From a virus (lineage: Duplodnaviria > Heunggongvirae > Uroviricota > Caudoviricetes), in the IMG/VR virus record IMGVR_UViG_3300005531_000248, positions 1-64,000 of that record: 64,000 nucleotides of DNA, one strand, 5' to 3'. The notes below the pieces were generated by a model that saw only the letters and a list, made by a program, of their open reading frames with translations, did no database searches and was not told the origin of the DNA. Position numbers and translations under genes: made by a program. How positions within the stretch are numbered: the first letter of the stretch is position 1; each line of letters starts with the position of its first letter. Below are positions 521 to 44,866 of the stretch, in pieces.

Positions 521-616
521 AGCCATTGAAGCATTGAGATTTTCGCGCTGCACTGGAGTAGCAGCGCGTCGGGAACCACGTCGTTGATTGGAGTGTCCGT
601 TCGATGAGTTTTTGCG

Positions 617-1912
617 ATGACTTTTGGAAGCTTATTTTCGGGGATCGGCGGCATCGACTTGGGGTTGGAGCGCGCAGGTCACCAATGCAGATGGCAGGTG
701 GAGATCGATGAATTCTGCCGCAAGGTCCTTCGGAAGCACTGGCCGGAAGTGCCGCGCTTTCGAGACATCACAAAAATCGAAGGGCGGGAGCTTGAACGGG
801 TCGATCTCATCTGCGGCGGATTCCCCTCTCAGGACCTCTCGCAAGCCGGAAAACGCGCAGGCATCGAAGGATCTCGCTCGGGCCTTTGGTTTGAGTTCGC
901 CCGCATTGTTGGGATTCTTCGACCCCGATACGTTCTTATTGAAAACGTCCCAGGTTTGCTTGATTACCGGGCAATGCCAAGAGTTGTCGGAGAACTGGCC
1001 CGACTCGGGTATGTGGGATCTTGGCTCAGCTTACGAGCTTCACAGTTCGGAGCGAGCCATCTCAGAAAACGAGTCTTCATCGTGGCCCACGACACGCGCC
1101 AGCTCGGGCGGCGGGAACCGTTCGGCATACCCGGGCGCGCCGTACCGACCTGCCCTGACGCAGATCGCGCAGAATTGGCCGACGCCTCGGGGCGAGGATG
1201 GCGAGAGTTGCGGGAACCATCCGAACTCGCAGGGCGATTCGCTGACGGGAGCGACGAAGTTGTGGAGAACGCCAGATGCGGCGGGCGATGGCGGCCCACG
1301 GAACCGGCATGGATCGATAGGCGATGGCCATCAGGTGACGATAGCGGAGCAAGCGGAGCACTGGGCGACTCCGAATGCGCACGACGGGACGGGAGCGCGG
1401 GGCAAGAACTTCGAACTGACGGATTGCCACTACAAGCCGCACGATCTGGTGAGCCAGACGGACTCCTGGAAGACACCGCATGGAATGAGCAACCGGGATC
1501 ACCGGGGCAAGGTGGGCGGCTGCGGCGGCGGGGAGTTTGCGAAGCAGGCGAACCAATGGCAGACGCCAGCGACGGATTCATTCAGGAGCCGGGGCGGGGA
1601 TCGCAAGGACGAGATGGGGCTGGATCAGCAGGCCAGGATGTTTCCAACACCATCGGCGAGAGATTACCGGACGCCCAACAAGAGCAGTTATCAGGACCGA
1701 GCAATTCAAAGAAGGGCGAACAGTTGAACAATTTTGTGGAGCATTCGCTCCCGGCCCCAATGACCCAAGATGGCCCGATATTATCCGAGTCCGATCTGAC
1801 CTCGCTCCGGCGCTTGAGCTTGGAGAACGCCGCAAACCGTCCGAAGCGCCGGCTCAACCCGAGATTTGTGGAATGGCTGATGGGCTTCCCGATTGGATGG
1901 ACCGAGCTATGA
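617..1912 (+). CDS. DNA cytosine-5 methyltransferase homolog with catalytic Cys replaced by Ser (PSQ instead of PCQ)
   Basis: Motif I FSGIGG; motif IV reads GGFPSQDLSQAGKR (expected GFPCQ); motif VI ENVPGLL; motif VIII-like QFGASHLRKRVFIVAH; C-terminal RFVEWLMGFPIGWT typical of phage Dcm-like MTases; long low-complexity insert in variable region. Confidence 0.75.
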   Translation: MTFGSLFSGIGGIDLGLERAGHQCRWQVEIDEFCRKVLRKHWPEVPRFRDITKIEGRELERVDLICGGFPSQDLSQAGKRAGIEGSRSGLWFEFARIVGILRPRYVLIENVPGLLDYRAMPRVVGELARLGYVGSWLSLRASQFGASHLRKRVFIVAHDTRQLGRREPFGIPGRAVPTCPDADRAELADASGRGWRELREPSELAGRFADGSDEVVENARCGGRWRPTEPAWIDRRWPSGDDSGASGALGDSECARRDGSAGQELRTDGLPLQAARSGEPDGLLEDTAWNEQPGSPGQGGRLRRRGVCEAGEPMADASDGFIQEPGRGSQGRDGAGSAGQDVSNTIGERLPDAQQEQLSGPSNSKKGEQLNNFVEHSLPAPMTQDGPILSESDLTSLRRLSLENAANRPKRRLNPRFVEWLMGFPIGWTEL

Positions 1913-3540: not shown

Positions 3541-3936
3541 ATGAATACTGACCCCTGGTATTCACGGCGCCGGAGTTACCTCAAGAAGGCGGGGCGTATC
3601 GAAGTCGGCAACGAGCCCGATCCCGCTCCGGACTGGATACACCGCATGCCCGAGCGAATCCGGGAAATTGTCGTTCGCGCCGCCAGCGAGTACGGCGTCT
3701 CGATCCGTATGGTGCTTTCTGGAATGCATGAAAGGCCCATCGTGTTGGCGCGGCGGCTGGCCATTCATCGCATCCGAAAATTAGCCGTCTCGACGCCGCA
3801 AATAGGGCGCTGGCTCGGTATGCATCATTCGAGCATCGTCTATCACTTGCAGAAGCCCTGCCCTCGCGGTCGGCGATTGCCAGAAGACTACGAATTAGGC
3901 GACGGCCCGGATGAAAGTGGGATATGGGCGATATGA
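3541..3936 (+). CDS. DnaA domain-IV-like helix-turn-helix DNA-binding protein
   Basis: ERPIVLARRLAIHRIRKLAVSTPQIGRWLGMHHSSIVYH resembles DnaA C-terminal DNA-binding domain (..aRq.AMyL.r.lT.~sl.eIG..fg~RDHsTV..a). Confidence 0.5.
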   Translation: MNTDPWYSRRRSYLKKAGRIEVGNEPDPAPDWIHRMPERIREIVVRAASEYGVSIRMVLSGMHERPIVLARRLAIHRIRKLAVSTPQIGRWLGMHHSSIVYHLQKPCPRGRRLPEDYELGDGPDESGIWAI

Positions 3937-5577: not shown

Positions 5578-5607
5578 GATTGAACTGTTTGGGCTGTGTT
5601 CTGTTTC

Positions 5608-5630
5608 GTGCCGCACTGGAGTAGCGGCAC
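5608..5630 (+). promoter_or_regulatory. HP-C leader hairpin (conserved loop ACUGGAGUA)
   Basis: GTGCCGC-actggagta-GCGGCAC, ~38 nt upstream of ATG 5668. Confidence 0.5.
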
Positions 5631-5667
5631 GGAGAAAGATGTCGTCGCTCGCTTGGGAGGTCGGTTC

Positions 5668-6045: not shown

Positions 6046-6374
6046 GATTACGAGTTTTGCTCAAATAACTGAGCAGAAGCTGAGCCGGGCAGCAACCCCG
6101 GTATATAGTTTTCACCGACAAGGGACTATCAAATGCCTGCTTTGAAACGAGGATTCGGAGCCTTCTCCTTAATGCGCCAAATTGCGGTGGATCTTCGGAT
6201 CTTCGTTTCAGCGGGGTCAGAAAGGAGAGCGCGCAGTTTAGATCAGCAGAGCACATGGGGGAACGTTCTATTCAACGTTACGGAACAGACAAGCAGCGAA
6301 AACTTGTCTGGATTACCAAGAGTAGGACGTCTTCCCTTAGTAATGAAAAAGAATTTAGGCCTTTGCGTCGTTTC

Positions 6375-6397
6375 GCACTGCACTGGAGTTGCAGTGC
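6375..6397 (+). promoter_or_regulatory. HP-C leader hairpin
   Basis: GCACTGC-actggagtt-GCAGTGC; stem differs from other copies with compensating changes. Confidence 0.5.
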
Positions 6398-6419
6398 GTA
6401 GAAGCAGCGCGGCTTCGAC

Positions 6420-6737
6420 TTGGGCGGTCCGGTCATGAGTCTCCGACAAGGCCCGAACGATTTGCTTAAGGCTCTTACGAGTGCGCAGACGGTGTTGCTG
6501 ATGATAGCGAATTGTCATCGCTGCGATCATTGTAGAAGGCGGGCGCTGGATTGTTTAGGGTACCAAGTGAATCCGGTGCTTGATCAAAAGCCGAACTTCG
6601 TAACCCCTAAGAAGCGCAAGTACAAACGCCGGGCACGGAGCGCCGCAAAGGAAACCATTCAGAGCGCGAACGAGCAAATCTCGCAACCCGTCGAGACCGT
6701 TGAGGGGAGCGTTGCCAACCAAAGGACCCCAAAGTGA
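6420..6737 (+). CDS. hypothetical protein; C-terminus in RE-1
   Basis: ORF track (alternative start ATGAGT at 6435); ends QSANEQISQPVETVEGSVANQRTPK. Confidence 0.4.
   Translation: MGGPVMSLRQGPNDLLKALTSAQTVLLMIANCHRCDHCRRRALDCLGYQVNPVLDQKPNFVTPKKRKYKRRARSAAKETIQSANEQISQPVETVEGSVANQRTPK
6660..6724 (+). repeat. RE-1 dispersed element (forward, subfamily A)
   Basis: near-identical to copy at 5971. Confidence 0.8.
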
Positions 6738-6982
6738 TTGGAGAAATCGACTGGACTGATGTCAAAACCAAAGGACCAGATTCTCTAGAACAGCTTTATC
6801 CTACTGGAACTCCCATGAAAGAAGTACACCCGGAATTTCGAGGCATGAGCCTTCCGTTATGGCAGAAGTTGAAAATGCACGAGCGGGTCGAGAAGTATCT
6901 GAAGACGTCGAAGCCCGAAACGCCGGCTGCCATTTCCGATTGGCCGGGCCGCGAGCGAAGGATGAAGGCAAAGAGCGCATGA
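6734..6982 (+). CDS. hypothetical protein
   Basis: ORF track; GTG start right after RE-1; ATGA overlap with next gene. Confidence 0.35.
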   Translation: MIGEIDWTDVKTKGPDSLEQLYPTGTPMKEVHPEFRGMSLPLWQKLKMHERVEKYLKTSKPETPAAISDWPGRERRMKAKSA

Positions 6983-8781
6983 GCGCCGCACCCATGCCAG
7001 CAAAAGCTCTCCATCTCGGGCATGATTTCGACCTGCCGGTAGACGCGGTAACGCAGAAGTTCGCCTTTCTCGGCCGTACCGGTTCAGGCAAAACCTACGC
7101 TGCTACCAAACTGGCGGAAGAGATGTTCTCGGCGGGCGCGCAAATCATCGCGCTCGACCCGGTGGGCGTCTGGTATGGACTGAGGCTTTCAAAAAACGGC
7201 AAGGACAAAGGCCTGGAGATCCCGGTGTTCGGCGGATTGCATGGCGACATACCCCTGGAGCCGGGTGCGGGAGCGCTCATCGCGGACCTGCTCATAGATC
7301 GGACTATTTCGGCAATCGTGGATGTCAGCCAAATGATCCAGGCCGAACAGCAGAGATTCGCCTACGCATTTGCGACCCGGCTGTTTGAACGGCGCAAACG
7401 CACTCCGGGAGCCATGATGCTGTTCCTCGAAGAGTGCCAGGAATTCGTGCCGCAGAATCCGATGAAGGGCGACGAACACATGCTGCACTCCTTCAACCGG
7501 CTGTGTAAGATTGGGCGCAACTTTGGCATCGGCGTGTCGCTGCTCTCGCAAAGGCCCCAGGAGATTAACAAGAAAGTTCTGAACCTAACCGAGTGCATGT
7601 TCGCGTTTCAGATGACCGGCCCGCACGAGCGAAAAACGGTGAAGGAATGGTTTTCCTACGTCGGTGATGACGCTGGGCTGGTGGACCGGTTACCGAAATT
7701 GCGGGTGGGAAGTGCCTACGTCTCCAGCCCTCAGTGGCTTCGCTATTCCGGCGAAGTAGCCATTGCGGAGAAACGAACGTTTAACGCCTCCAGCACTCCG
7801 AAGGTTGGAGCGGCACCCGCGCAGGTGAAACCACTTGATCCAATCGACCTTGAAAAGATCCGCTCCGAGATGGCCGAGACCATCGAGCGGGCCAAGGCCG
7901 ACGATCCCAGGGAACTCCGAAAGCAGATTGCGGAGCTGAAGAAGCAGATCACGCATCCCCCGGCCAGTAATATACCGGATAAGGTATTACCCGCGGATCG
8001 GCTCCAGAAGGAGTTCGAGAAGGGCGTCCAGGCCGAGCGCCGCAGAATTCGCGAGGAACTGGTACCCCAACTTCAGGACATCACGAACTTACACGCGCGC
8101 ATTGTGCGGGCCTTCGAAGGAAATCCACTGGCCGCGATCGGAATGAGCCTGGACAAGATTAGTGAGTTGCTCAACAAGCTGGCACCCATCCCAGACCCGA
8201 ATTCCCCGCCCCCGCCTCGCACCGTCCCGCAAGCAGCGCGCGCCGTTCCCGCGCCGGCGCGCGCAGCACCCCGGAAGGAAGTCGACCCGGACTCCAAGAT
8301 CACCGGCCCCGAGCAGCGGATACTGGACGCGATCGCATGGATGGAATCCATAGGCATCGAAGCCCCCGAGCAGACTGCCGTAGCATTCCTGGCTGGTTAC
8401 ACCTACGGCGGGGGTGCGTTCAATAACCCGCGGGGCGCATTGCGCACAAAGGAACTAGTCGAATACGTCGGAGGCGACCGGATCCGCTTGACGGACGCCG
8501 GGCGCGCAATTGCAACGTTTCCAGACAGTGCTCTCACTGCCAATGAGCTTCAGATGAAAGTGCTGGAGCGCCTGCCGGGGCCCGAGCGCAAAATTCTTTC
8601 GGTGCTGATCGAGGCTTACCCGAATTCGATGTCGAACGAGGAATGCGCTTCTGCCGCTGGTTACGCGCCCAACGGGGGTGCCTACAACAATCCGCGCGGA
8701 CGTCTGCGGACGTTGGGATTGATCGACTACCCAGATCGCGGGCACGTGCGCGCCCTGCCTCTGCTGTTTCTGGAGCGCTGA
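6979..8781 (+). CDS. HerA/FtsK-like AAA ATPase (DUF87-type) with C-terminal tandem ~70-aa winged-helix-like repeats
   Basis: Walker A FLGRTGSGKT; IIALDPVGVWY; Walker B MMLFLEECQEF; GVSLLSQRPQEI; C-terminal duplicated module AGY(T/A)xxGGAxNNPRGxLRTxxL(V/I)xY. ORF track 6859..8781 trimmed to ATG 6979 (ATGA overlap). Confidence 0.65.
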   Translation: MSAAPMPAKALHLGHDFDLPVDAVTQKFAFLGRTGSGKTYAATKLAEEMFSAGAQIIALDPVGVWYGLRLSKNGKDKGLEIPVFGGLHGDIPLEPGAGALIADLLIDRTISAIVDVSQMIQAEQQRFAYAFATRLFERRKRTPGAMMLFLEECQEFVPQNPMKGDEHMLHSFNRLCKIGRNFGIGVSLLSQRPQEINKKVLNLTECMFAFQMTGPHERKTVKEWFSYVGDDAGLVDRLPKLRVGSAYVSSPQWLRYSGEVAIAEKRTFNASSTPKVGAAPAQVKPLDPIDLEKIRSEMAETIERAKADDPRELRKQIAELKKQITHPPASNIPDKVLPADRLQKEFEKGVQAERRRIREELVPQLQDITNLHARIVRAFEGNPLAAIGMSLDKISELLNKLAPIPDPNSPPPPRTVPQAARAVPAPARAAPRKEVDPDSKITGPEQRILDAIAWMESIGIEAPEQTAVAFLAGYTYGGGAFNNPRGALRTKELVEYVGGDRIRLTDAGRAIATFPDSALTANELQMKVLERLPGPERKILSVLIEAYPNSMSNEECASAAGYAPNGGAYNNPRGRLRTLGLIDYPDRGHVRALPLLFLER

Positions 8782-8782
8782 C

Positions 8783-8998
8783 ATGATCCAAGAACACCAG
8801 TGGATAGAGAGCGAACCATTTCTGTGGAGTTGTAAAAAGTGCGGTGATGGTCCGTACCACGGTATGAGACCGCTTTCCAAGTGTCCAGGAAGACCAACGT
8901 TCGGAAGGCTTCAGAGCGCGAACGCGGGAAAGTTGCAACCGACGAACGAAAGCCGTGAAGAGCGTCGAAGCATAAGTAACCAACTGCGAGTTGAGTAA
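8783..8998 (+). CDS. small zinc-ribbon protein; C-terminus in RE-1
   Basis: WSCKKCGDGPYHG...SKCPGRP; ends GRLQSANAGKLQP. Confidence 0.35.
   Translation: MIQEHQWIESEPFLWSCKKCGDGPYHGMRPLSKCPGRPTFGRLQSANAGKLQPTNESREERRSISNQLRVE
8912..8975 (+). repeat. RE-1 dispersed element (forward, subfamily B)
   Basis: cagagcgcgaacgcgggaaagttgcaaccgacgaacgaaagccgtgaagagcgtcgaagcataag. Confidence 0.6.
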
Positions 8999-9032
8999 AT
9001 TTAAACCGCTAGTTTAGAAAGCTCAAACAGGG

Positions 9033-9443
9033 ATGCCCATAAGACCAGAGTTTAAAAAGTTCTACACCGGTCAACAGTGGAACTTAATCCGAACGAGGAT
9101 CTTAAAACGAGCGCACGACAAATGCGAGCAGTGCAAGGCTCCCAATCATGCTCAAGTATTCAGGTCCACCCATGGCATGTGGAGACTCCGTGATTCAGGA
9201 GCACCCTGGCACCGATCGAACGGCAACATTACGACTTTCAGCCCAATGGTGATTCGCGAAGTACGAATTGTATTGACCATTGCGCATTTAAACCACAAAG
9301 CGGGCGACGACCGGGACGAGAATCTCAAAGCGCTCTGCCAGTGGTGCCATCTGAACTTCGACGCCCCGCATCATAAGTGGACCAGATCGATAAGAAAGGA
9401 TAAGGCGAGACCAATGCAGTGGGAAGGAGCTATTCAAGTATGA
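9033..9443 (+). CDS. HNH endonuclease
   Basis: CEQCKAPNHAQV...HLNHKAGDDRDENLKALCQWCHLNFD (Cys4 + His-Asn-His). Confidence 0.75.
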   Translation: MPIRPEFKKFYTGQQWNLIRTRILKRAHDKCEQCKAPNHAQVFRSTHGMWRLRDSGAPWHRSNGNITTFSPMVIREVRIVLTIAHLNHKAGDDRDENLKALCQWCHLNFDAPHHKWTRSIRKDKARPMQWEGAIQV

Positions 9444-9515
9444 TTACAAGCTTTCGACCATTCTATTTCTCGCGCTGGACTGAGGTTCCAGCGCGTAGAG
9501 ATTGCGCGTCTTCGC

Positions 9516-10484
9516 TTGAGCGCTCCGTTCAATGAGTTCAGGATGCGTGTGAACGTGATCAATCTCAGCGTTCCTCACTACAATCTCGGCGCGGCAAAAC
9601 TAGCCGCCTGGCTCCGATCGCAAGGTTGGACCGTTGTCGAACAGGGCCTCGGAGAAGCCGATCTCGTTTGCTTGTCTGCGATCTTTTCTTGGGATTTACC
9701 CAAGGGAGTTAGAATTGTCGCTCACTACGACGGGCGCGCCGAGATCTGGGCCGGTGGTCCGGGATTTCACCATATGGCCGAGTGGTGGAAGGAGCAGACC
9801 GGGATTACAGCGCACATTGGCCTGGATTGGAGATTCGAACGGCACCGCGGCGATTACCGGATGTGTTTTGCGGCGCGCGGCTGTCCCTGGGATTGTCACT
9901 TCTGCGGCGTGACGAAATGGGAAGGCAAGGAATACACCCTGGATTGGGATTTCGAACCGGCACCAATCCTCTGCGATAACAATCTGACCGACGAGCCGGT
10001 AGATTTTCAGGAGCACATTGTCCGGCGTTACCAGGAGCGGGGCGTGCGGTTGCTGGATGCCAATAGCGGATTTGAGCCGAGGAACTTTACAGAGGAGACG
10101 TATCGGCGCTGGAAGGCGCTACTGCGCGGACCGTGGCGGTTCGCTTACGACTACCTGCCAGAGCGATCTGCGGCTTTACGGGTGCTGCGAATCCTTCGGG
10201 ACGAACCGTCAAAGAAGAAGCGCGTTTACGTGCTGATCGGTAACGAGCCTTTCGAGGCCTGCTTGCAGCGCGCGACGGAGGTGATCGAGAACGGTGGTGA
10301 GCCGTACTGCCAGCCGTTCCTGCCTAAGACGGCACTCGACCGGCATGATTTCGTAATTCGGTACGACTGGACGCGCGATAAACTGGTGCACTTCGCGCGC
10401 TATTTCAATCGGCATTTGAACAAGTACAGCACTCTCGAAGAGTACCGGTGTGCAACCAAACAACCATTCGCGATGCTGTCTTGA
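9516..10484 (+). CDS. compact radical SAM protein with N-terminal B12-binding-like domain
   Basis: CPWDCHFC = CX3CX2C; N-terminal VNVINLS...NLGAAKLAAWLRSQGWTVV...ADLVCLSAIF...IWAGGPGF matches B12-binding domain of class-B radical SAM enzymes; only 322 aa. Confidence 0.6.
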   Translation: MSAPFNEFRMRVNVINLSVPHYNLGAAKLAAWLRSQGWTVVEQGLGEADLVCLSAIFSWDLPKGVRIVAHYDGRAEIWAGGPGFHHMAEWWKEQTGITAHIGLDWRFERHRGDYRMCFAARGCPWDCHFCGVTKWEGKEYTLDWDFEPAPILCDNNLTDEPVDFQEHIVRRYQERGVRLLDANSGFEPRNFTEETYRRWKALLRGPWRFAYDYLPERSAALRVLRILRDEPSKKKRVYVLIGNEPFEACLQRATEVIENGGEPYCQPFLPKTALDRHDFVIRYDWTRDKLVHFARYFNRHLNKYSTLEEYRCATKQPFAMLS

Positions 10485-10617
10485 AGGGAAGAAGCCGGGC
10501 GCGGAAGAAACCGCAGACATCGGCCCAGTTGGCAACGCGGTCCGGACCAGGGGTATCCCCAGCAGGTTCGTCGGCGCGTACTCAGCGTAAACAGTCTCAG
10601 CGTAAAAAGAGAAGCTC

Positions 10618-10863
10618 ATGACCTACATAGAACGTCACGGAGTTTTACTAATCTGGGGCGAACCAGTCAAACAGAACGAACTGGAGCGCACCGTTTCTGA
10701 ATTGTCTCTAAGATCCTTAGTTCAACAACGGGATCAGTACATCGAACTGCTGCAAGACAAAAACCGAACGCTGGAGCGCATCAACCGGCAGTTGCGGATT
10801 GTGGCGTTTGCTGCAACGGGCCTGCTCTTGGTGGTGGCTCTGATTCAGATAGGTGTCAAATGA
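10618..10863 (+). CDS. small protein with C-terminal TM helix
   Basis: coiled N-terminus; LRIVAFAATGLLLVVALIQIGV; ATGA overlap with next gene. Confidence 0.35.
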   Translation: MTYIERHGVLLIWGEPVKQNELERTVSELSLRSLVQQRDQYIELLQDKNRTLERINRQLRIVAFAATGLLLVVALIQIGVK

Positions 10864-13631
10864 GTACCGCTGCTGTTTCTGTCCAGAAATCGATGTTAAC
10901 GGGAGCTATCTGCCCGGAGTGCAAGCTACATCGGGGCCATCGCGCGAATTGCTCCAAAGGCCGGATAAACGAGTCTAGCGATCGCAGTCTCGAAGCCTAC
11001 CGTGAATTTCTGAAGCGCAAGGTATTGCTCTCGGACGAGTACGGGTTTGAAGTGGCCGATTCCGAGATCCACGCATCGCTGAAGCCTCATCAACGCATTG
11101 CAGTTCAGTGGGCCGTCCGTGGCGGCCGTCGGGCATTATTCGAATCCTTCGGTCTGGGAAAAACACGTCAGCAGCTTGAAATTCTGCGCCTCATCGTTCA
11201 GCGTGTGGGCGGCCGCGGCTTGATAGTGGCGCCGCTGGGTATACGACAGGAATTCCAGGCCGAAGCTGCGGAGCTCGGAACCGATCTGAAGTTCATCAAG
11301 TCCGATGCGGAAATATCGGGCGACGGACTGTACGCCACCAATTACGAGAGTGTCCGGGAAGGCAAACTTACAGCGTCCCGTTTCGTCGCGGCATCGCTCG
11401 ACGAGGCGGCCATATTGTCCGGCTTCGGCGGCGTGAAGACCTTCCGTGAGTTTATGCGGCAGTTCGACGCCGTGAAATACCGCTTTGTGGCCACGGCCAC
11501 GCCTGACCCGAACGAGTACATCGAACTTCTGGCCTATGCTGCCTTCCTGGGAGTAATGGAAGTCAGCCAAGCCAAAACCCGGTTTTTCAAACGGGACTCC
11601 ACCAAAGCCGATCATCTAACGCTGCACCCTCACAAAGAGCGGGAATTCTGGCTATGGGTAGCGTCCTGGGCTTTGTTCCTCGACAAGCCATCCGACTTCG
11701 GACCTGAGTTCTCAGACGAGGGCTATTCCCTGCCACCGCTCGATATACAGCTCCACGAGTTGCCAGTGGATCATGCTGCAGCTCTGCCGGATCGCGAAGG
11801 CCAGGGCAGACTGTACCGGGAATCGGCGCAAGGTCTGAGTGAGGCCGCACGCGAGAAGCGCGAGACCTTGGATGCCAGAATCGCGGAAATGAAGCGCATC
11901 GTCGACCTGGAGCCGGAGGAACACTTCATCCTTTGGCATGACCTCGAAGACGAGCGCCGCTCGATCAAGAAACTACTTCCCCAAGCCGCGGACGTATTCG
12001 GAATGCAGCGGACCTCGAAAGGCGGCTCCGAGAAGCTGGAGCAGTCCTTGATGGATTTCGCACAGGGCAAAGTTCAATACCTTGCCGCCAAACCATCCAT
12101 GTTTGGCGCCGGTTGCAATTTCCAAAAGCACTGCGCGCGTGCCATCTTCTGCGGGATCAATTACTCGTTTCGGCACTTCATCCAGGCGGTACACCGAATC
12201 TATCGCTTCTTGCAAAACAGAACGGTCACCATTCACCTGATCTACGCCGAAAGCGAGAAGAGCGTTTTATTGGCACTCCTCGAAAAATGGGAACGCTACA
12301 AACAGCAGTGCGCCAAGATGCGCGAGATTATCGCGGAGTTCGGACTGGCCCGAGAAGCCCTGAAAAGCGCCATGACACGCTCGCTCGGAATAACGCGCAT
12401 CGAGCGCGGCAGTGAGCATTATCTAATGGTCAACAACGATTGCGTGGAAGAGTTGCATCGTATGGAGTCCGGCAGTATCGATCTGGTTGTAACGTCCCCG
12501 CCGTTCTCGCACATGTACGAGTACTCGCCCAACTACGCCGACTTCGGCCATTCAGATTCGAACGAGCACTTTTGGGAGCAGATGGACTTCATGATTCCCC
12601 AGTTGCTGCGCGTTCTCCGGCCAGGCCGCACGGCCGCTATCCACGTCAAGGACCGCGTAGTGCCGGCTGGAATTTCGGGGCTAGGTTTTCAGACGATTTA
12701 TCCGTTCCACGCCGATTGCATCGCTCATTTCGTCAAAGCAGGTTTCGGCTTCATCGGCATGAAGACCATCGTCACGGATGTGGTGCGCGAGAATAACCAG
12801 ACCTATCGCCTCGGGTGGTCCGAGCAATGCAAGGACGGCACCAAGATGGGCTACGGGCTGCCGGAATACTTGCTGTTCTTCCGTAAGCCTCCAACAGATA
12901 CCTCCAATGGATATGGCGATAAGCCGGTTGTGAAGAGCAAACCGCTATGCGTGTCGGAGGCCGGCGAGATCGTTTCGTTTGACCGTGATCTTCCAATTCA
13001 GCCGGGAAGCGGGTACTCGCGATCACGCTGGCAGATCGACGCCCACGGATTCATGCGCTCGTCCGGCAATCGACCGCTTCGTCCAGAAGACCTCAACGGA
13101 CTGACCCACGAGCAGATTTTCAAGCTGTTCCGCAAGTACTCATCTGAAGAGATCTACGACTTCGAGCAGCACGTGAGGCTGGGCGAGGAGCTGGAGCAAA
13201 AAGGCACTCTGCCGGTCACGTTCATGCTCTTACAGCCGCAGTCCTGGCATCCGGACGTATGGACCGACGTAACGCGGATGCGCACGCTCAACAGTTCCCA
13301 GGCCTCGAAAGGCCGGGAGATGCATCTATGCGCGATGCAGTTCGATGTGTGCGATCGAGTCATCGCTCAGCTTTCGATGCCCGGAGAAGTGGTGCTAGAC
13401 CCCTTCGCGGGAATCGGAACCGTTCCATCGCGCGCGGTGATGCAGGGCCGATTCGGCCTGGGAATTGAACTGGCGCCGGGGTATTTCGCGGATGCGGTGA
13501 GCTATTGCAGAGCGGCCGAGGAGAAACGCGCGGCGCCCACACTGTTCGATCTGACGGAACTAGATTCCTCTGAGCGCGAACGCGGCCTGCCTCAACCCGT
13601 CGAGACCGCCGAGGGGAGCGTCAACATATAA
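10860..13631 (+). CDS. SNF2-family helicase fused to beta-class N6A/N4C DNA methyltransferase; C-terminus in RE-1
   Basis: N-terminal HQRIAVQWAV...FGLGKTRQQL...LIVAPLGIRQEFQ (SNF2_N), DEAAIL box, helicase-C GKVQYLAAKPSMFGAGCNFQ; C-terminal DLVVTSPPF (motif IV) then LDPFAGIGTV (motif I); ends SERERGLPQPVETAEGSVNI. Confidence 0.8.
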   Translation: MSTAAVSVQKSMLTGAICPECKLHRGHRANCSKGRINESSDRSLEAYREFLKRKVLLSDEYGFEVADSEIHASLKPHQRIAVQWAVRGGRRALFESFGLGKTRQQLEILRLIVQRVGGRGLIVAPLGIRQEFQAEAAELGTDLKFIKSDAEISGDGLYATNYESVREGKLTASRFVAASLDEAAILSGFGGVKTFREFMRQFDAVKYRFVATATPDPNEYIELLAYAAFLGVMEVSQAKTRFFKRDSTKADHLTLHPHKEREFWLWVASWALFLDKPSDFGPEFSDEGYSLPPLDIQLHELPVDHAAALPDREGQGRLYRESAQGLSEAAREKRETLDARIAEMKRIVDLEPEEHFILWHDLEDERRSIKKLLPQAADVFGMQRTSKGGSEKLEQSLMDFAQGKVQYLAAKPSMFGAGCNFQKHCARAIFCGINYSFRHFIQAVHRIYRFLQNRTVTIHLIYAESEKSVLLALLEKWERYKQQCAKMREIIAEFGLAREALKSAMTRSLGITRIERGSEHYLMVNNDCVEELHRMESGSIDLVVTSPPFSHMYEYSPNYADFGHSDSNEHFWEQMDFMIPQLLRVLRPGRTAAIHVKDRVVPAGISGLGFQTIYPFHADCIAHFVKAGFGFIGMKTIVTDVVRENNQTYRLGWSEQCKDGTKMGYGLPEYLLFFRKPPTDTSNGYGDKPVVKSKPLCVSEAGEIVSFDRDLPIQPGSGYSRSRWQIDAHGFMRSSGNRPLRPEDLNGLTHEQIFKLFRKYSSEEIYDFEQHVRLGEELEQKGTLPVTFMLLQPQSWHPDVWTDVTRMRTLNSSQASKGREMHLCAMQFDVCDRVIAQLSMPGEVVLDPFAGIGTVPSRAVMQGRFGLGIELAPGYFADAVSYCRAAEEKRAAPTLFDLTELDSSERERGLPQPVETAEGSVNI
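13571..13630 (+). repeat. RE-1 dispersed element (forward, subfamily A)
   Basis: gagcgcgaacgcggcctgcctcaacccgtcgagaccgccgaggggagcgtcaacatataa. Confidence 0.75.
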
Positions 13632-13639: not shown

Positions 13640-14080
13640 TTAAGGTGACAATCTCCTGATTCTGTACTCTTCATCGAGTATGATCTCAACGGATCGTAAA
13701 GTAAGCCCAAACCTCCGTGAAATGTAGGAGTACGTCATCCCGGCGCCATCGAGCGAAAGAATGCAATCCGGCAAGGCATGGGGTTCGGAAGCCTTCGTTT
13801 CGCATCCGGTGCACCGGCCTTCCTTGAGTGGAAAACCGATCCGGCGGGAACACTCCTGGGGTTCAATGAGCAGGTCTCCAAGCAGAAGGTAGTCGTAGCC
13901 GACCCCGAAAACCATGCAGAGCTTGTGGACGGTGGCGATCGAGAGGTCCGAGGCCAGGCCGCGCTCGAGCCGGGAAACCGTGGTCAGGCCGACGCCAGAA
14001 AGAGATGACAGCTTGCCCTGGCTCCAGCCGCGCTCGCTTCTGAGCCGGATCAGTGTCCGGGGCAATCTCTTTGACAGCAC
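13640..14080 (-). CDS. XRE-family HTH transcriptional regulator (CI/Cro-like repressor candidate)
   Basis: LIRLRSERGWSQGKLSSLSGVGLTTVSRLERG = HTH_3; divergent from sigma factor gene. Confidence 0.75.
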   Translation of the reverse strand: MLSKRLPRTLIRLRSERGWSQGKLSSLSGVGLTTVSRLERGLASDLSIATVHKLCMVFGVGYDYLLLGDLLIEPQECSRRIGFPLKEGRCTGCETKASEPHALPDCILSLDGAGMTYSYISRRFGLTLRSVEIILDEEYRIRRLSP

Positions 14081-14125: not shown

Positions 14126-14707
14126 GTGTCGTGCGCCCTTAATCTGTCACTTCAAGTCACACTTTGTCTACAAGGTTACGCCGTGGAAATACCTGAGCGC
14201 AACTTGCTTATAGAACGGTATTTACCGAAAATTCGGGGTATCGCACGCCAGTTATCGTACCGGCTTCCAAGTTCTTTCGAGGTTGAGGATCTGGTCCAGA
14301 TAGCTGTGGTGGCACTGATTGAGGCTTCAGAACGGTATAAAGAAGATACCGGAAGCTCTTGGTGGTCGTTTGTAAGAGACAGATGCTATGGGAGTATGAT
14401 TAATTTCGTTGATGGGGAGATAAGACGGGTCAAGGGCGGCGAAACCAACGGTTTCTCCTCCCTTACAAACCCGCCTCTTCCCTCAGAAGCGCCCGACCGT
14501 TCGCCCAATCCGGAGTGCCAGGCCATCACCCACGAACAGGCCCGGCTGCTGATCCGACGGATCGGCCGGCTGCCCAAGAAACACCGGGCGTACCTGCGGC
14601 TCAAGGTCGATGGCCGGACACATTCTGAAATTGCACGCAGGCTGGGTGTGAGCCTGCCGCGGATCAGCCAGATCAAAACCAAGGTCAGAGAGGAACTGGT
14701 CGCGTGA
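14126..14707 (+). CDS. sigma-70 family RNA polymerase sigma factor (group 3/FliA-like)
   Basis: region 2 DLVQIAVVALIEASERYKEDTGSSWWSFVRDRCYGSM; region 4 LPKKHRAYLRLKVDGRTHSEIARRLGVSLPRISQIKTKV. Confidence 0.7.
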   Translation: MSCALNLSLQVTLCLQGYAVEIPERNLLIERYLPKIRGIARQLSYRLPSSFEVEDLVQIAVVALIEASERYKEDTGSSWWSFVRDRCYGSMINFVDGEIRRVKGGETNGFSSLTNPPLPSEAPDRSPNPECQAITHEQARLLIRRIGRLPKKHRAYLRLKVDGRTHSEIARRLGVSLPRISQIKTKVREELVA

Positions 14708-18183: not shown

Positions 18184-18756
18184 GTGCTTGATCCTTTATC
18201 CATACACTCCCGCATCCTCTCAGGCGACCAAACAGCCGAAGAAGAGCTGATCGCCTTTCTTCGAAACAAGTACGCGAGAGAGTATTTAAGGAGCCTGGGA
18301 CCGTTAGGAGAAGACTACCTGCAAGACCTGTGCATGACGGTAATCGAAGGCATACGCAAAAACTCCGTTGAGCACCCCCAGTTTCTGATCACGTACTGCC
18401 AGTGGAAAGCGCACAGCATCCGTCTGCACGCCATCCGCAAAGCCTCGCAGGCATCGAAAAAGCTCATTCCGATAACAGAGGCCAGACACTTCGAGGACCC
18501 GCATCCGGGCGCCGATGTGACCTTGGTCGAGGCTGAACGCGCCCGCATTGTTCTGGGCTTGATCCATACGTTAGATTCGGTGAGCCGCGAAATCGTGTTG
18601 CGATCCTATTTTGAAAAACAGAAGGCCGAAGAGATCCAGCGCGACATGAACCTGACGCCCAACGAATACCGGGGCCGCAAGCAACGCGCTGTAGAGCGGT
18701 TGAAGGCAGAGTACAGGCAACGGTTTGGGGAACGCGAAGAGCTGCTTGCGGCGTAG
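18184..18756 (+). CDS. putative sigma-70 family (ECF-like) factor, region 4 HTH
   Basis: REIVLRSYFEKQKAEEIQRDMNLTPNEYRGRKQRAVERLK matches sigma region 4 pattern; region 2 assignment weaker. Confidence 0.45.
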   Translation: MLDPLSIHSRILSGDQTAEEELIAFLRNKYAREYLRSLGPLGEDYLQDLCMTVIEGIRKNSVEHPQFLITYCQWKAHSIRLHAIRKASQASKKLIPITEARHFEDPHPGADVTLVEAERARIVLGLIHTLDSVSREIVLRSYFEKQKAEEIQRDMNLTPNEYRGRKQRAVERLKAEYRQRFGEREELLAA

Positions 18757-18946
18757 AATGATCTCCTCTACTATAGCTATCGCGTGTAGAGTCAAAAAGA
18801 TCCGATACAAAACCGGACTAATCGGTACTAATCCGTACTTTTCCGGAGTAGAGTTTGTGGATCATAGACCAGTGGGATGAGCCAGGCTTTCGGGAAAAAG
18901 ATCCAGTAGTCAGCCGACAGTAAAATAATCCAACGGTCTCTTTCTC

Positions 18947-18969
18947 GCGCTGCCCTGGCGTAGCAGCGC
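18947..18969 (+). promoter_or_regulatory. HP-C hairpin, variant loop
   Basis: GCGCTGC-cctggcgta-GCAGCGC; same stem as copy at 544. Confidence 0.4.
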
Positions 18970-19035
18970 CTTGGGTATCCGCTGAATTCCACTGACGGTT
19001 CCCAAATATTCCGAACATCCCAAATATCCCAACGT

Positions 19036-22805: not shown

Positions 22806-23287
22806 CGGACCAGGAATTCGGGGAACAGTTGGCGGCATTGCGGCCGCGGCTGGCCCGGTTAGCCCAGGCGTACTTCGTTCCGGAGCCGGAAGATCTGATC
22901 CAGGACACGATGCTTCTGGCGTGGCGCGGCCGCGGACAGTACCGTGGCGATGCTTCGCTGTTCACCTGGACGTCGCGGATTCTGCTGAACCGGCTGCGTG
23001 ATGTGAGGCGCCGGAGCAACGTGCGCAGGAACGAATTCCCAATGGACGAGGACATTGCTGTAATCGACCCAGAGCCGAACGCCGAAGAGCGTTTGCTCGC
23101 CAGGGACACGAGAATTCCGGAAGTGATGCGCGTGGTTGTGAAACTTCGTCCGGTGCTGCGCGAATCGATTCAGTTCAATCTAAGGGAAGACCGGCCGGCG
23201 CTGACGAACACACAGAAGGTACGGCGCTTCCGGGCCATCCAGGAGATACGGCGACGGCTCCACGTTTCCGAGAAAAAAGCTGCATGA
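22802..23287 (+). CDS. ECF-type sigma-70 factor-like protein
   Basis: region 2: EDLIQDTMLLAWRGRGQYRGDASLFTWTSRILLNRLRDVRRR. Confidence 0.55.
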   Translation: MTDQEFGEQLAALRPRLARLAQAYFVPEPEDLIQDTMLLAWRGRGQYRGDASLFTWTSRILLNRLRDVRRRSNVRRNEFPMDEDIAVIDPEPNAEERLLARDTRIPEVMRVVVKLRPVLRESIQFNLREDRPALTNTQKVRRFRAIQEIRRRLHVSEKKAA

Positions 23288-23799
23288 ACGAGCCAGAAAC
23301 CCCACAAATCCCACACGAAAGCCCAGATTTTCCGCGCGAAACTCCCCACGAGACCGATAAGAGCGAGCGGGAGATCTCGGGCCAGGAACGCCGCAAGATC
23401 GCCAACCAGCAGAAGTTCTTAGAGGAGTATGCCAAGCTCGGTCAGATCTCGGCGGCGGCCGAGGCGGCCAAACTCGATCGGTCCTGCCATTACGAATGGA
23501 TGGAACTGGACCCGGCCTATCCTAAGCTGTTTGAAGCCGTTAAGGCGTCGCTGGTTGAAAACGCTAAGGACACGGCCTATCGGCTGGGAGTGCTCGGGGT
23601 GCTGGTCCCGAAGACGGTTGCGGGGGTGCGCGAACTGGTGCGGGAGCACGACACCCGCGTACTGATCCGGTGGCTCGAGGTGCATGATCCGGCCTGGCGT
23701 CCGCACACCGACGTCAATATTACAAACCTCAGCGAACTGACGGAGCGATTGAACGCCGGCCGCGAGCGTGCGAAGGCCAAAGAGCCGGAAGCCGAATAA
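23284..23799 (+). CDS. terminase small subunit
   Basis: KFLEEYAKLGQISAAAEAAKLDRSCHYEWMELDPAYPKLFEAVKAS matches TerS HTH pattern; immediately upstream of TerL. Confidence 0.6.
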   Translation: MNEPETPQIPHESPDFPRETPHETDKSEREISGQERRKIANQQKFLEEYAKLGQISAAAEAAKLDRSCHYEWMELDPAYPKLFEAVKASLVENAKDTAYRLGVLGVLVPKTVAGVRELVREHDTRVLIRWLEVHDPAWRPHTDVNITNLSELTERLNAGRERAKAKEPEAE

Positions 23800-23963
23800 C
23801 GGGCGCCGTTGAAAAGGTGATGCACAGGCTTTTGCGGGCAGGAAAGTTTGGTCTTTTGGCGAAGTGATACAGAGGCAAAAAGCGGAAACTGGCCGGAAGC
23901 GCTGTGCACCGGATTAGCGTACGCCAGCGGCGGCTGCCTGTCTGTTCGATTTTGACCATTTGA

Positions 23964-25977: not shown

Positions 25978-26303
25978 TGAAGATTCCGGGACTGCCTGAA
26001 GGCGTCGACGTGGTCCGCTTCGGCGTGTGCGGGCCGGAAGAGTTCGAGTTGGTCGGCGAGGAGATCTACCGGGGTGGGCGTCATCATCCAGTGCACCACA
26101 TGATCGTTCAGCCGGAAAAAGGCTGGGAGTTCGTCGAAGTCAGTGCTTTTAACCGCATGTATAAGGCGGTGCGGATGTACGACCCACCCAAAAAGCTGAC
26201 CGTGGTGTTCACCTGCTCGCACTCAGGCGAGATGCGCGCGGTGGAAGCTGCGATCAAGAGTGTGTCGGATACCATCACGACACATGCAACCGACTGGGAA
26301 TAG
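25977..26303 (+). CDS. hypothetical protein sharing a 30-aa module with 27098..27412
   Basis: KKLTVVFTCSHSGEMRAVEAAIKSVSDTIT duplicated at DNA level. Confidence 0.4.
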   Translation: MKIPGLPEGVDVVRFGVCGPEEFELVGEEIYRGGRHHPVHHMIVQPEKGWEFVEVSAFNRMYKAVRMYDPPKKLTVVFTCSHSGEMRAVEAAIKSVSDTITTHATDWE

Positions 26304-27101: not shown

Positions 27102-27412
27102 CGCCCAAAAAGCTGACGGTGGTGTTCACCTGCTCGCATTCAGGTGAGGCGCGTGCGGTGGTAGACGCGATCAAGAGTGTGTCGGATACGATTACATCAA
27201 TGCTGTATGAGGGTGACTGCCTGTGGCCGGACTCCTTCGATACCGAAGGGAACAAGACCGACTGGAGATACGATCCGGAACTGGAACTCCTACACTCACC
27301 ATCGACGGACGATTTTATGTATCGCGTCGGCGACAATCCTCCCGTTGATCAGCAGAAGCGCTGGATGGATCGGCATAGAGATGCGATCCTAGTGAGACGG
27401 CAGAACTTCTAA
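27098..27412 (+). CDS. hypothetical protein (N-terminal module paralog of 25977..26303)
   Basis: MTPKKLTVVFTCSHSGEARAVVDAIKSVSDTIT. Confidence 0.4.
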   Translation: MTPKKLTVVFTCSHSGEARAVVDAIKSVSDTITSMLYEGDCLWPDSFDTEGNKTDWRYDPELELLHSPSTDDFMYRVGDNPPVDQQKRWMDRHRDAILVRRQNF

Positions 27413-37832: not shown

Positions 37833-37839
37833 ATTTCTC

Positions 37840-37905
37840 GCTGAGAGTACGGGAGACGAAACCCGGCGGTTTCTTCTCCCGTAAACCCGCTTCTTCCCTG
37901 ATTTA
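37840..37905 (+). repeat. HP-B hairpin element
   Basis: gctgagagtacGGGAGAcGAAACCcggcGGTTTCttCTCCCgtaaacccgcttcttccctgattt. Confidence 0.6.
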
Positions 37906-37917
37906 GGCGGAGCATTC

Positions 37918-44862: not shown

Positions 44863-44866
44863 GATT

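What the first reader, a model, noticed from the sequence alone, without database searches (positions are those of the whole stretch)
6979..13631. Early operon: HerA/FtsK-type ATPase with tandem wHTH repeats, HNH nuclease, mini B12-binding radical SAM, and SNF2-helicase::DNA-MTase fusion
This is a tightly packed co-directional block with ATGA overlaps. The ATPase (Walker A GRTGSGKT, LDPVG, LFLEE) ends in a duplicated ~70-aa module AGYxxxGGAxNNPRGxLRT. The radical SAM protein (CPWDCHFC) has an N-terminal B12-binding-like domain but is only 322 aa. The 923-aa protein fuses an SNF2-like helicase to a beta-class amino-MTase (SPPF then DPFAGIGT), in the manner of DarB/ParB-MTase. Together they look like a DNA modification or anti-restriction module of a kind not standard for P22-like phages. 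A radical SAM enzyme next to DNA-modifying enzymes raises the possibility of a non-canonical DNA modification.
Basis: partly seen in the sequence, partly recalled or inferred. Interest (0 to 1): 0.55.

Follow-up and report, generated by a model that had tools for sequence, protein, structure and literature searches.

The report
Phage early-gene mosaic with orphan radical-SAM
Four DNA-handling enzyme genes lie side by side in the early region of a P22-like prophage of a soil acidobacterium, but they are independently shuffled accessory genes, not one pathway; the only unexplored one is a small radical-SAM enzyme from a large uncharacterised phage family that probably acts on DNA.

Summary
They are a HerA/FtsK-clade ATPase ending in two tandem winged-helix modules, an HNH nuclease, a 313-aa radical-SAM protein with an N-terminal B12-binding-like domain, and an SNF2::beta-class amino-methyltransferase fusion. 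The reading as one coordinated DNA-modification module is not supported. Among 80 viral loci encoding the ATPase, only 1-2 also carry the SNF2, MTase, rSAM or HNH genes. Among 85 loci encoding the rSAM, 5 carry an SNF2-MTase. Neither gene has a conserved immediate neighbour. The SNF2-MTase belongs to a very large, already described phage/plasmid family, so anti-restriction methylation is plausible. The HNH is ordinary. The ATPase family is common in metagenomic phages but has not been characterised. The rSAM is not NrdG or QueE. It belongs to a large phage-borne family (at least 2,500 sequences, 1,203 clusters at 50% identity). Its predicted fold is closest to cobalamin-dependent class B rSAM methylases, but it lacks their C-terminal domain. 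Some members carry inteins inside the catalytic motifs, and rare members are fused to ParB_N or a Dam-type MTase. That points to a stand-alone DNA-directed radical enzyme of unknown chemistry. Interest is moderate and rests on the rSAM alone.

The parts
6639..6726 (+). Copy of the dispersed bipartite ~65-nt repeat (invariant GAGCGCG.ACG, then about 34 nt, then AGCGT), just upstream of orf82/ATPase. Possibly a phage promoter or regulator site.
6734..6982 (+). 82-aa ORF of unknown function. Its stop overlaps the ATPase start (ATGA).
   Evidence: No homologue was found in 80 ATPase loci.
6979..8781 (+). 600-aa HerA/FtsK-clade P-loop ATPase with no HAS-barrel, followed by a coiled coil and two winged-helix modules.
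7006..7773 (+). ATPase P-loop domain (aa 10-265). Walker A GRTGSGKT lies at 7072-7095. Walker B is LFLEE, with E152 invariant.
7852..8181 (+). Long helical (coiled-coil-like) linker, aa 292-401, followed by a disordered Pro-rich stretch, aa 409-435.
8305..8511 (+). Winged-helix module 1, aa 443-511 (AGYTYGGGAFNNPRGALRT).
8539..8763 (+). Winged-helix module 2, aa 521-595 (AGYAPNGGAYNNPRGRLRT).
8783..8998 (+). 71-aa ORF, doubtful as a gene. It has no family hit, was not called by the gene callers, and contains repeat copy 8908-8969.
9033..9443 (+). 136-aa free-standing HNH endonuclease, with CxxC...CxxC zinc ligands and the HNH motif AHLNH...N...H.
9468..9495 (+). Conserved stem-loop, one of 5 copies in the early region, with compensatory stem changes. 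It lies 48 nt upstream of the rSAM start.
9543..10484 (+). 313-aa radical-SAM protein. The N-terminal Rossmann (B12-binding-like) domain is about aa 1-100. The rSAM core starts at about aa 105. The CxxxCxxC motif lies at 9882-9905.
10618..10863 (+). 81-aa ORF of unknown function, with a hydrophobic C-terminal stretch read from the sequence. Called by both gene callers. ATGA overlap with the next gene.
10860..13631 (+). 923-aa SNF2-type ATPase fused to a beta-class N4/N6 amino-methyltransferase.
10995..12299 (+). SNF2 ATPase part, about aa 46-480: GLGKT aa 98, LDEAA aa 180, QAVHRIYRFLQ aa 442.
12417..13559 (+). Methyltransferase part, about aa 520-900: motif IV SPPF at 12495-12506 and motif I DPFAGIGT at 13398-13421.
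13567..13631 (+). Copy of the dispersed repeat. It forms the last ~20 codons and the stop of the SNF2-MTase ORF.

Best explanation
Window 6979-13631 is a mosaic stretch of the early, accessory region of a P22-like temperate phage (a prophage in a Bryobacteraceae genome). It holds four DNA-directed enzymes that are inherited independently and most likely act independently.

(1) SNF2::MTase. This is a member of the widespread SWI2/SNF2 ATPase-amino-methyltransferase dyad. By inference, it translocates on duplex DNA and methylates the phage genome (N6-A or N4-C; the motif IV Ser fits either), protecting it from restriction.

(2) ATPase. This is a minimal HerA/FtsK-clade motor tethered through a coiled coil to two winged helices. 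By inference, it is a ring translocase loaded at, or guided by, specific DNA sequences, as in FtsK-gamma/KOPS or TraB/clt. It would serve phage DNA replication, recombination or processing rather than base modification.

(3) HNH. This is a free-standing accessory or homing-type nuclease.

(4) rSAM. This is a stand-alone member of a large phage-specific family with a class-B-like two-domain fold. By inference, it uses a [4Fe-4S]/SAM-derived radical on a substrate present in every infection, most likely DNA or a nucleotide. The chemistry is unknown: C-methylation, another C-H functionalisation, or lesion repair.

Shown: the domain identities, the folds, the family sizes and the lack of synteny.
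Inferred: every biochemical activity and every target.
For: Identity of the parts: ATPase; HNH; rSAM; SNF2-MTase.

Independence of the genes:
- Of 80 IMG/VR loci with an ATPase homologue, tblastn finds SNF2 in 2, MTase in 1, rSAM in 1 and HNH in 1.
- Of 85 rSAM loci, an SNF2-MTase cluster occurs in 5.
- A Pfam census of immediate neighbours finds no recurrent partner. For the ATPase the top family is DUF5131, in 4 of 150 ORFs.
- For the rSAM the neighbours are YqaJ, terminase, NinG, RusA, DnaB, D5_N, PolA and MTases, each in 1-2 of 135 ORFs.
- Individual contexts also vary.

DNA link of the rSAM family:
- ParB_N::rSAM (P0165) and rSAM::D12 MTase (P0234) are continuous ORFs on real contigs.
- One intein is inserted exactly before the third cluster Cys (P0122). 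Another sits in the beta5 strand, read here as the GxIxGxxE motif (P0203).
- The genomic setting is always the replication / nin-like region.

Precedents:
- The SNF2-MTase dyad is described in PMC5512222.
- An rSAM enzyme acting on DNA has a precedent in M6 gp53 (PMC8989533).

Phage type.
Against: - No experiment exists for any of these families.
- The rSAM fusions are single instances among 1,203 clusters. A third one, Helicase_C::rSAM (P0156), lies in a frameshifted SNF2 gene and may be a deletion artefact.
- Inteins are not specific to DNA enzymes.
- Cobalamin binding is doubtful. The would-be lower-ligand His is not conserved, and a large sub-clade lacks the first ~45 residues.
- tblastn and blastp co-occurrence counts can miss very divergent homologues.
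- The winged helices show no sequence similarity to FtsK-gamma, so sequence-guided translocation is an analogy only.
Confidence: 0.6

Rival explanations
1. One reading: the ATPase, HNH, rSAM and SNF2-MTase cooperate as one DNA hypermodification or anti-restriction module. The rSAM would make a non-canonical base that the other enzymes install or exploit.
For: The genes are co-directional and adjacent. All four are DNA-related. In one distant phage contig, an rSAM homologue follows an SNF2 helicase and lies 2.3 kb from a 5-hmdU-kinase-like gene.
Against: Co-occurrence is near zero in 80 + 85 related loci. There are no conserved neighbours. Repeat elements and gaps split the block. No kinase, aGPT-Pplase or hydroxymethylase genes are recorded in window 1-19.5 kb.
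Confidence: 0.1
2. The rSAM does not touch DNA. It modifies a host or phage protein, an RNA (a MiaB/RimO-like or Cfr-like role), or a small molecule such as a defence signal or cofactor.
For: The top structural neighbours act on a protein (MgmA), a protein/tRNA (RimO, MiaB) and small molecules (AprD4, TsrM, CysS, TokK). The protein is near-neutral (pI 7.6) and has no recognisable nucleic-acid-binding domain. One homologue follows an Apyc1-like gene.
Against: The fusion partners found are DNA-related (ParB_N, Dam-type MTase, weak HNH and HTH). There is no TRAM or peptide-recognition (RRE) domain. There is no conserved partner gene that could encode a protein or peptide substrate.
Confidence: 0.35
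3. The ATPase with tandem winged helices is the phage's replication initiator or helicase, or a partition/segregation motor, rather than an accessory translocase.
For: Apart from a 131-aa DnaA_C-domain protein, no replicative helicase, primase or polymerase is recorded in the part of the early region covered by the look-up, window 1-19.5 kb. Winged helices could bind an origin. Phage phi297 has an FtsK_gamma 'segregation ATPase' near its SNF2-MTase.
Against: Some ATPase-bearing phages also carry DnaB-like helicases or a Toprim primase nearby. HerA/FtsK-clade motors are not known as replicative helicases. The window may not include the whole early region.
Confidence: 0.25
4. The HerA-like ATPase plus the HNH nuclease form a prophage-borne anti-phage defence pair, analogous to HerA-nuclease systems.
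For: PADLOC HerA models hit at 8e-20, and ZorE-type HNH models at 5e-6.
Against: The hits cover only the generic P-loop and HNH cores. The protein has no HAS-barrel. An HNH neighbour occurs in only 3 of 150 flanking ORFs. A repeat element and a 250-nt gap separate the two genes.
Confidence: 0.05

Closest known systems
SWI2/SNF2 ATPase-amino-methyltransferase dyad of phages, plasmids and conjugative elements (PHROG 16; archetype P1 DarB; Iyer et al. 2017, PMC5512222)
   Same: An SNF2-type ATPase and a DNA amino-MTase in one polypeptide. Full-length match to phrog_16 (4e-115). At least 8,000 close homologues, 57-100% identical among the 120 listed. Homologues are annotated 'DNA helicase/methylase' in Pseudomonas, Arthrobacter and Mycobacterium phages.
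   Different: Here the SNF2 part is N-terminal and the MTase is a beta-class N6_N4 enzyme. From my own knowledge, DarB is a much larger virion protein of about 2,255 aa. The polyvalent-protein dyad described in PMC5512222 has the helicase C-terminal to an adenine MTase. The window protein has the canonical motif IV SPPF, while most homologues, including phi297, have SIPF. The target base and specificity are unknown.
HerA/FtsK superfamily translocases (HerA of HerA-NurA and SIR2-HerA; FtsK/SpoIIIE; Streptomyces TraB; STIV2 B204)
   Same: P-loop core with Walker A/B. The best PDB matches by sequence profile and by fold are HerA. The core also superposes on the minimal viral NTPase B204 (TM 0.75 on the target). 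The motor-plus-C-terminal-winged-helix logic resembles FtsK-gamma and TraB (my own knowledge).
   Different: No N-terminal HAS-barrel and no membrane anchor. A ~110-aa coiled coil and two tandem winged helices of a family with no Pfam model. No similarity to FtsK_gamma. NCBIfam HerA equivalog scores are far below their cut-offs.
Cobalamin-dependent (class B) radical SAM enzymes and relatives with the same N-terminal domain (MgmA, TsrM, TokK, CysS; AprD4; MiaB/RimO)
   Different: 313 aa against 417-658 aa: there is no C-terminal substrate or cobalamin-capping domain. No auxiliary-cluster cysteines in the N-domain. Pfam B12-binding scores below its cut-off and Radical_SAM is not hit. A sub-clade lacks the first ~45 residues. 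The family is phage-borne and has no partner gene.
Radical SAM enzymes known to act on DNA: phage M6 gp53 (N-alpha-glycinylthymine isomerase) and spore photoproduct lyase (PMC8989533)
   Same: Both set a precedent for a radical SAM enzyme working on DNA, and M6 gp53 for one that is phage-encoded.
Phage HNH endonucleases (PHROG 1571)
   Same: Match over the whole length at 2.4e-22. HNH and zinc-ligand motifs are present.
   Different: It is not adjacent to the terminase, which lies 14 kb away at 23284-25493. A role as a cos-cleavage helper is therefore unlikely.

Membership tests
Radical SAM superfamily | CxxxCxxC motif providing three ligands to the [4Fe-4S] cluster | tested here: met
   C114/C118/C121 are invariant in 36 homologues and in 8 divergent members, including Clostridium phage phiCT453B.
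Radical SAM superfamily | Partial (beta/alpha)6 TIM-barrel core | tested here: met
Radical SAM superfamily | Pfam PF04055 match at the gathering score | tested here: not met
   No PF04055 hit for the window protein. Relatives reach only 21-27 bits against a cut-off of 29.5.
Radical SAM superfamily | Reductive cleavage of SAM by a bound [4Fe-4S] cluster | not testable with these tools
   Needs anaerobic biochemistry.
Class B (cobalamin-dependent) radical SAM methylases | N-terminal Rossmann-like cobalamin-binding domain | tested here: inconclusive
   Pfam B12-binding at E=8.4e-5 but 22.8 bits against a cut-off of 32.1. The fold matches MgmA, TsrM and TokK. However, His12 is not conserved and a sub-clade lacks residues 1-45.
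Class B (cobalamin-dependent) radical SAM methylases | C-terminal domain completing the active site, with a typical length above 400 aa | tested here: not met
Class B (cobalamin-dependent) radical SAM methylases | Bound cobalamin and methyl transfer | not testable with these tools
   Needs cofactor analysis and an activity assay.
   NCBIfam gives only HpnR_B12_rSAM (16.1 bits, cut-off 650) and TIGR04295 (14.9 bits, cut-off 400). Pfam and PHROGs give no NrdG or QueE hit.
Methylthiotransferases (MiaB/RimO) | Three conserved Cys in the N-terminal domain for the auxiliary cluster, and a C-terminal TRAM domain | tested here: not met
   No invariant Cys lies before residue 114, and there is no sequence after the core.
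HerA/FtsK P-loop ATPases | Walker A/B P-loop core of the DUF87/HerA type | tested here: met
   PF01935 scores 33.1 bits against a cut-off of 23.2. PDB HerA profile hits reach 7.6e-19. Foldseek finds HerA at 9e-12. G37, K38 and E152 are invariant.
HerA proper (NurA-HerA or defence HerA) | N-terminal HAS-barrel domain and a partner nuclease encoded next to it | tested here: not met
   The P-loop domain starts at residue ~10. NCBIfam HerA equivalogs score 30-42 bits against cut-offs of 800-970. There is no conserved neighbour.
FtsK/SpoIIIE | FtsK_gamma winged helix at the C-terminus | tested here: not met
   No PF09397 hit even at E up to 10. The winged-helix fold itself is predicted.
SNF2 ATPase::amino-MTase fusion (PHROG 16) | Full-length match to the family profile | tested here: met
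   phrog_16 at 4.2e-115, residues 46-908. At least 8,000 homologues, 57-100% identical among the 120 listed.
SNF2 ATPase::amino-MTase fusion (PHROG 16) | SNF2 helicase motifs I, II and VI | tested here: met
   GLGKT, LDEAA and QAVHRIYRFLQ are present and conserved. Pfam SNF2-rel_dom itself reaches only E=0.13, while phrog_62 'DNA helicase' gives 1.8e-34.
Beta-class N4/N6 DNA amino-methyltransferases | Motif IV (D/N/S)PP(Y/F) preceding motif I FxGxG, and a Pfam N6_N4_Mtase match | tested here: met
   SPPF at aa 546 and DPFAGIGT at aa 847. PF01555 scores 52.3 bits against a cut-off of 26.7.
P1 DarB | A virion-packaged protein of about 2,255 aa, with the MTase N-terminal to a DExH helicase | tested here: not met
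   The domain order is reversed and the protein is 923 aa. Packaging into the virion is not testable here.
Thymidine hypermodification clusters (5-HMUDK, aGPT-Pplase, rSAM isomerase) | 5-hmdU DNA kinase and amino-acid:DNA transferase genes next to the rSAM | tested here: not met
   The precomputed Pfam hits for the called genes in window 1-19.5 kb include neither. Neighbours of 70-odd rSAM homologues include neither.
HNH endonucleases | beta-beta-alpha-Me HNH motif with zinc ligands | tested here: met
   phrog_1571 at 2.4e-22. CEQC, CQWC and AHLNH...N...H are visible in the sequence.

The most novel reading that the evidence does not exclude
The 313-aa protein represents a large, unrecognised family of stand-alone phage radical-SAM enzymes that act directly on duplex DNA. 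The reaction could be a radical, possibly cobalamin-assisted, C-methylation or another C-H functionalisation of a base, or the reversal of a lesion. It would need no kinase or transferase cluster. That would make it a one-gene route to a non-canonical DNA modification or repair, spread across phages of bacteria and archaea.
Probability: 0.15. Interest if true: 0.85.

Novelty: new variant of a known kind. Interest (0 to 1): 0.4.

Why it matters
According to PMC8989533, the radical SAM enzymes known to work on DNA were spore photoproduct lyase and phage M6 gp53, and M6 gp53 needs a multi-gene pathway. The family found here has three notable properties:
- It is large: at least 2,500 sequences, in phages from Acidobacteriota to Clostridium, Marinitoga and methanogen viruses.
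- It is small enough to express easily.
- It has no partner gene.

If it modifies or repairs DNA, it would add a new single-enzyme chemistry to phage counter-defence, and possibly a tool for DNA labelling. If it does not, it is still an uncharacterised minimal relative of class B rSAM enzymes, useful for asking what the N-terminal domain does without cobalamin.

The rest of the block is ordinary. Showing that the four genes are not a module prevents a wrong pathway annotation.

Tried and rejected
- **Housekeeping rSAM families (NrdG, QueE, MoaA and others).** No profile hit.
- **Conserved synteny among the four genes.** Rejected by tblastn on 80 + 85 loci and by clustering of neighbours.
- **A conserved immediate partner for the ATPase or the rSAM.** None in the Pfam censuses.
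- **HerA + HNH as a defence pair.** Rejected for lack of recurrence.
- **The ATPase as the terminase.** phrog_2666 is annotated 'terminase large subunit', but the phage has its own TerS/TerL at 23284-25493.
- **FtsK_gamma homology of the winged helices.** Negative.
- **Close DNA relatives among 50,697 phage records.** Only the SNF2-MTase part matches, at 66-72% identity.
- **Solved structures by sequence for the rSAM.** Only a marginal MgmA hit at E=0.26.
- **BFVD viral structures.** Only larger COG1032-type proteins with no known function.
- **afdb50 fold search.** The library was not available.
- **Literature searches for a characterised phage B12-type rSAM.** Nothing found.
- **Helicase_C::rSAM 'fusion' P0156.** It sits in a frameshifted SNF2 gene and is probably a deletion artefact.
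- **RNA structure for the 65-nt dispersed repeat.** No covariation.
- **Rfam on window 1-20 kb.** No match.
- **Sigma-70 promoter and terminator scan of 5.5-15.5 kb.** Not above chance.
- **The repeat core in 175 other loci.** Absent, apart from a single match in L106.

Full report
**What is there.**
The region holds co-directional + strand ORFs:
- orf82, 6734-6982
- a 600-aa ATPase, 6979-8781
- a doubtful 71-aa ORF, 8783-8998
- a 136-aa HNH nuclease, 9033-9443
- a radical-SAM protein, 9543-10484
- orf81, 10618-10863
- a 923-aa SNF2::methyltransferase, 10860-13631

The rSAM protein is 100% identical to a protein of a Bryobacteraceae (Acidobacteriota) metagenome-assembled genome, carried on contigs of 160-311 kb. 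The window is therefore most likely a prophage. Its late genes match a P22-type virion: portal phrog_156, coat phrog_283, head-closure Hc3 phrog_578 and ejection protein phrog_598. TerS and TerL lie at 23284-25493.

**Checking the observation.**
- ATPase: Pfam DUF87 scores above its cut-off, PADLOC HerA models reach 8e-20, and PDB HerA chains reach 7.6e-19.
- ATPase model (mean pLDDT 87): a P-loop domain at aa 10-265, a long helical linker at 292-401, a disordered Pro-rich stretch, and two H-H-H-beta-beta winged helices at 443-511 and 521-595.
- The two winged-helix modules are clear duplicates (hhalign probability 99.6%, E=1.5e-23). The whole architecture is conserved in homologues that cover ~98% of the query; the search found 1,904 proteins at E<=0.001.
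- HNH: matches phrog_1571 over its whole length.
- 923-aa protein: matches phrog_16 over residues 46-908 at 4e-115 and Pfam N6_N4_Mtase at 9e-14. It has SNF2 motifs GLGKT, LDEAA and QxxHRxxRxxQ. Motif IV SPPF lies ahead of motif I DPFAGIGT, the beta-class order.

Three corrections apply.
1. The rSAM starts at ATG 9543 (313 aa).
2. Only two junctions are ATGA overlaps. The other gaps (34-133 nt) carry repeat elements.
3. ORF 8783-8998 is probably not a gene.

**The radical-SAM protein.**
It is very divergent at sequence level.
- Pfam gives only a sub-threshold B12-binding hit, and NCBIfam gives 15-16-bit hits to B12-rSAM models.
- It belongs to a large family: 2,545 sequences in the 5.8-billion set, 1,203 clusters at 50% identity, and 145 confirmed relatives in IMG/VR.
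- Distant members occur in Clostridium phage phiCT453B, a Methanomassiliicoccales virus and a Marinitoga virus.
- The three cluster cysteines are invariant.

It is therefore a minimal relative of the class B / B12-domain rSAM group. It lacks their C-terminal domain and the auxiliary-cluster cysteines of the methylthiotransferases. Cobalamin use is uncertain. A short N-terminal motif is shared with MgmA. However, the candidate ligand His is not conserved, and a sizeable sub-clade lacks the first ~45 residues.

**What the rSAM might act on.**
- Two rare members are fused to DNA-related domains, as continuous ORFs on real contigs: ParB_N::rSAM (P0165) and rSAM::Dam-type MTase (P0234).
- Weaker C-terminal HNH and HTH matches occur in two others.
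- Five cluster representatives carry inteins. In P0122 the intein sits exactly before the third cluster cysteine, which serves as the +1 residue. In P0203 it sits in the beta5 strand, which I read as the GxIxGxxE motif.
- The gene always lies in the replication / nin-like region of phages and prophages. Its neighbours there include NinG, RusA, YqaJ, DnaB, D5 primase, PolA, methyltransferases and the terminase, and no neighbour recurs.

A partner-less enzyme must use a substrate present in every infection. Together with the fusions, this makes DNA or a nucleotide the best guess, at about 0.4-0.5. The chemistry remains unknown. A published precedent exists for a phage rSAM acting on DNA, M6 gp53. 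That enzyme is SPL-like and embedded in a kinase/transferase/PLP cluster. Neither is the case here.

**Is it one module?**
No.
- Among 80 viral loci with an ATPase homologue and up to 10 kb of flank, tblastn finds the SNF2 part in 2 and the MTase, rSAM and HNH in 1 each.
- Among 85 rSAM loci, an SNF2-MTase cluster occurs in 5.
- A Pfam census of the ORFs immediately flanking the ATPase gives DUF5131 in 4 of 150, HNH_3 in 3 and ParB in 2.

The closest relative that has both the ATPase and the SNF2-MTase carries them in the opposite order, with neither rSAM nor HNH. The block is therefore a local juxtaposition of independently mobile accessory genes.

**The other parts.**
- SNF2::MTase: this family is huge, with at least 8,000 close homologues (57-100% identical among the 120 listed), some carrying inteins. 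It is present in Pseudomonas, Arthrobacter and Mycobacterium phages. The pairing of SWI2/SNF2 ATPases with DNA amino-methylases in phages and plasmids has been described and linked to protecting incoming DNA (PMC5512222).
- Most homologues have SIPF rather than the window's canonical SPPF. From general knowledge of amino-MTases, a Ser in motif IV is more typical of N4-cytosine enzymes, so the target base is open.
- ATPase: it lacks HerA's HAS-barrel and any conserved nuclease partner. Its winged helices have no Pfam model and no detectable FtsK-gamma similarity. A sequence-guided ring translocase is the most economical mechanism, but it is an inference by analogy with FtsK and TraB. A role in replication initiation or segregation is a live alternative.

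**Verdict.**
- The SNF2-MTase and the HNH are ordinary.
- The ATPase family is common but uncharacterised.
- The rSAM is a new, minimal, phage-specific variant of the B12-domain radical SAM group and is the only part worth experimental follow-up.

Noticed in passing
window, + strand copies starting near 2885, 4283, 5971, 6660, 8912, 13570, 14828, 25496, 44867, 47747, 56876; - strand copies near 2336, 3190, 15462: There are fourteen copies of a bipartite ~65-nt element. GAGCGCG(A/C)ACG and AGCGT are invariant, about 44 nt apart start to start, and are followed by an A-rich tail. The 13-mer core occurs 17 times against 4.2 expected. Copies lie at gene ends or between genes, and several ORFs, including the SNF2-MTase, read through a copy and so share the C-terminal peptide QPVET.EGSV. 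Early copies contain GAAC-N17-CGTC, which looks like an ECF-sigma promoter; late copies have GCAC...CGT. No RNA structure is supported. The core is not found in 175 other loci, apart from one match in L106. They may be promoters for the two phage sigma factors.
   Followed up: partly
window 541-568, 5604-5631, 6371-6398, 9468-9495, 18943-18970 (+ strand): There are five copies of a stem-loop, CGCGCUGC-ACUGGAGUA-GCAGCGCG, with a conserved loop. Four stem pairs keep pairing through changes on both sides. Where a start codon can be assigned (three copies), it follows 37-49 nt downstream. The genes are the C5 methylase, the P22_Y8K6-like gene and the rSAM. There is no Rfam match. It could be a boxB/nut-like or other 5'-UTR regulatory hairpin.
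   Followed up: partly
window 14126-14707 and 18184-18756 (+); 13640-14080 (-): The phage encodes two sigma-70 family (region 2 / region 4) proteins. A divergently oriented HTH_3 repressor-like gene lies directly after the SNF2-MTase.
   Followed up: no
window 37832-37906, 44795-44869, 47646-47720: This is a third repeat family, in the late region. It is a long GC-rich hairpin (ACGGGAGA...TCTCCCGT around GAAACC-CGGC-GGTTTC). In two of its three copies it lies immediately upstream of a copy of the 65-nt element, as a terminator followed by a promoter would.
   Followed up: no
window 617-1912 (+) and 3541-3936 (+): A separate C5-cytosine DNA methylase (PF00145; phrog_363/116) and a 131-aa DnaA_C-domain protein lie upstream. 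The phage therefore carries at least two DNA methyltransferases.
   Followed up: no
P0122, P0198, P0203, P0207, P0210 (rSAM family); P0426, P0438, P0494 (SNF2-MTase family): Inteins (Hint plus LAGLIDADG) interrupt members of the rSAM family, and one SNF2-MTase member (P0494) has a Hint_2 hit. Two further members (P0426, P0438) are ~1,320 aa against ~920 aa, which suggests inteins but was not checked. In the rSAM they sit in the CxxxCxxC motif and in the beta5 strand (read here as the GxIxGxxE motif).
   Followed up: partly
SNF2-MTase homologues (P0391-P0510; phi297 in L008): Most homologues carry SIPF instead of (S/D/N)PPF at motif IV, and DPFGGLMT instead of DPFxGxGT at motif I. The window protein has the canonical forms. 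Whether the SIPF forms are active methylases is unknown.
   Followed up: partly
ATPase-encoding loci L014-L093: DUF5131 (phage Gp37/Gp68, with a three-Cys motif) is the most frequent gene near the ATPase. By blastp clustering it occurs in 18 of 80 loci within 10 kb, but it is directly adjacent in only 4 flanking ORFs.
   Followed up: no
L178 2793-3668 and 5171-7068: In one distant phage contig, an rSAM homologue is merged with the C-terminal lobe of a frameshifted SNF2 helicase. A 5-hmdU-kinase-like gene (PF18723) lies 2.3 kb upstream. This is the only hint of a link to thymidine hypermodification.
   Followed up: partly
window 55523-56046 and 26187-26278 / 27104-27195: Three ~80-nt direct repeats encoding Gly-rich NxT(I/V)xGTCxGCG units lie inside a late gene (54990-56522). 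Separately, a 92-nt segment is duplicated at 88% identity, 917 nt apart.
   Followed up: no
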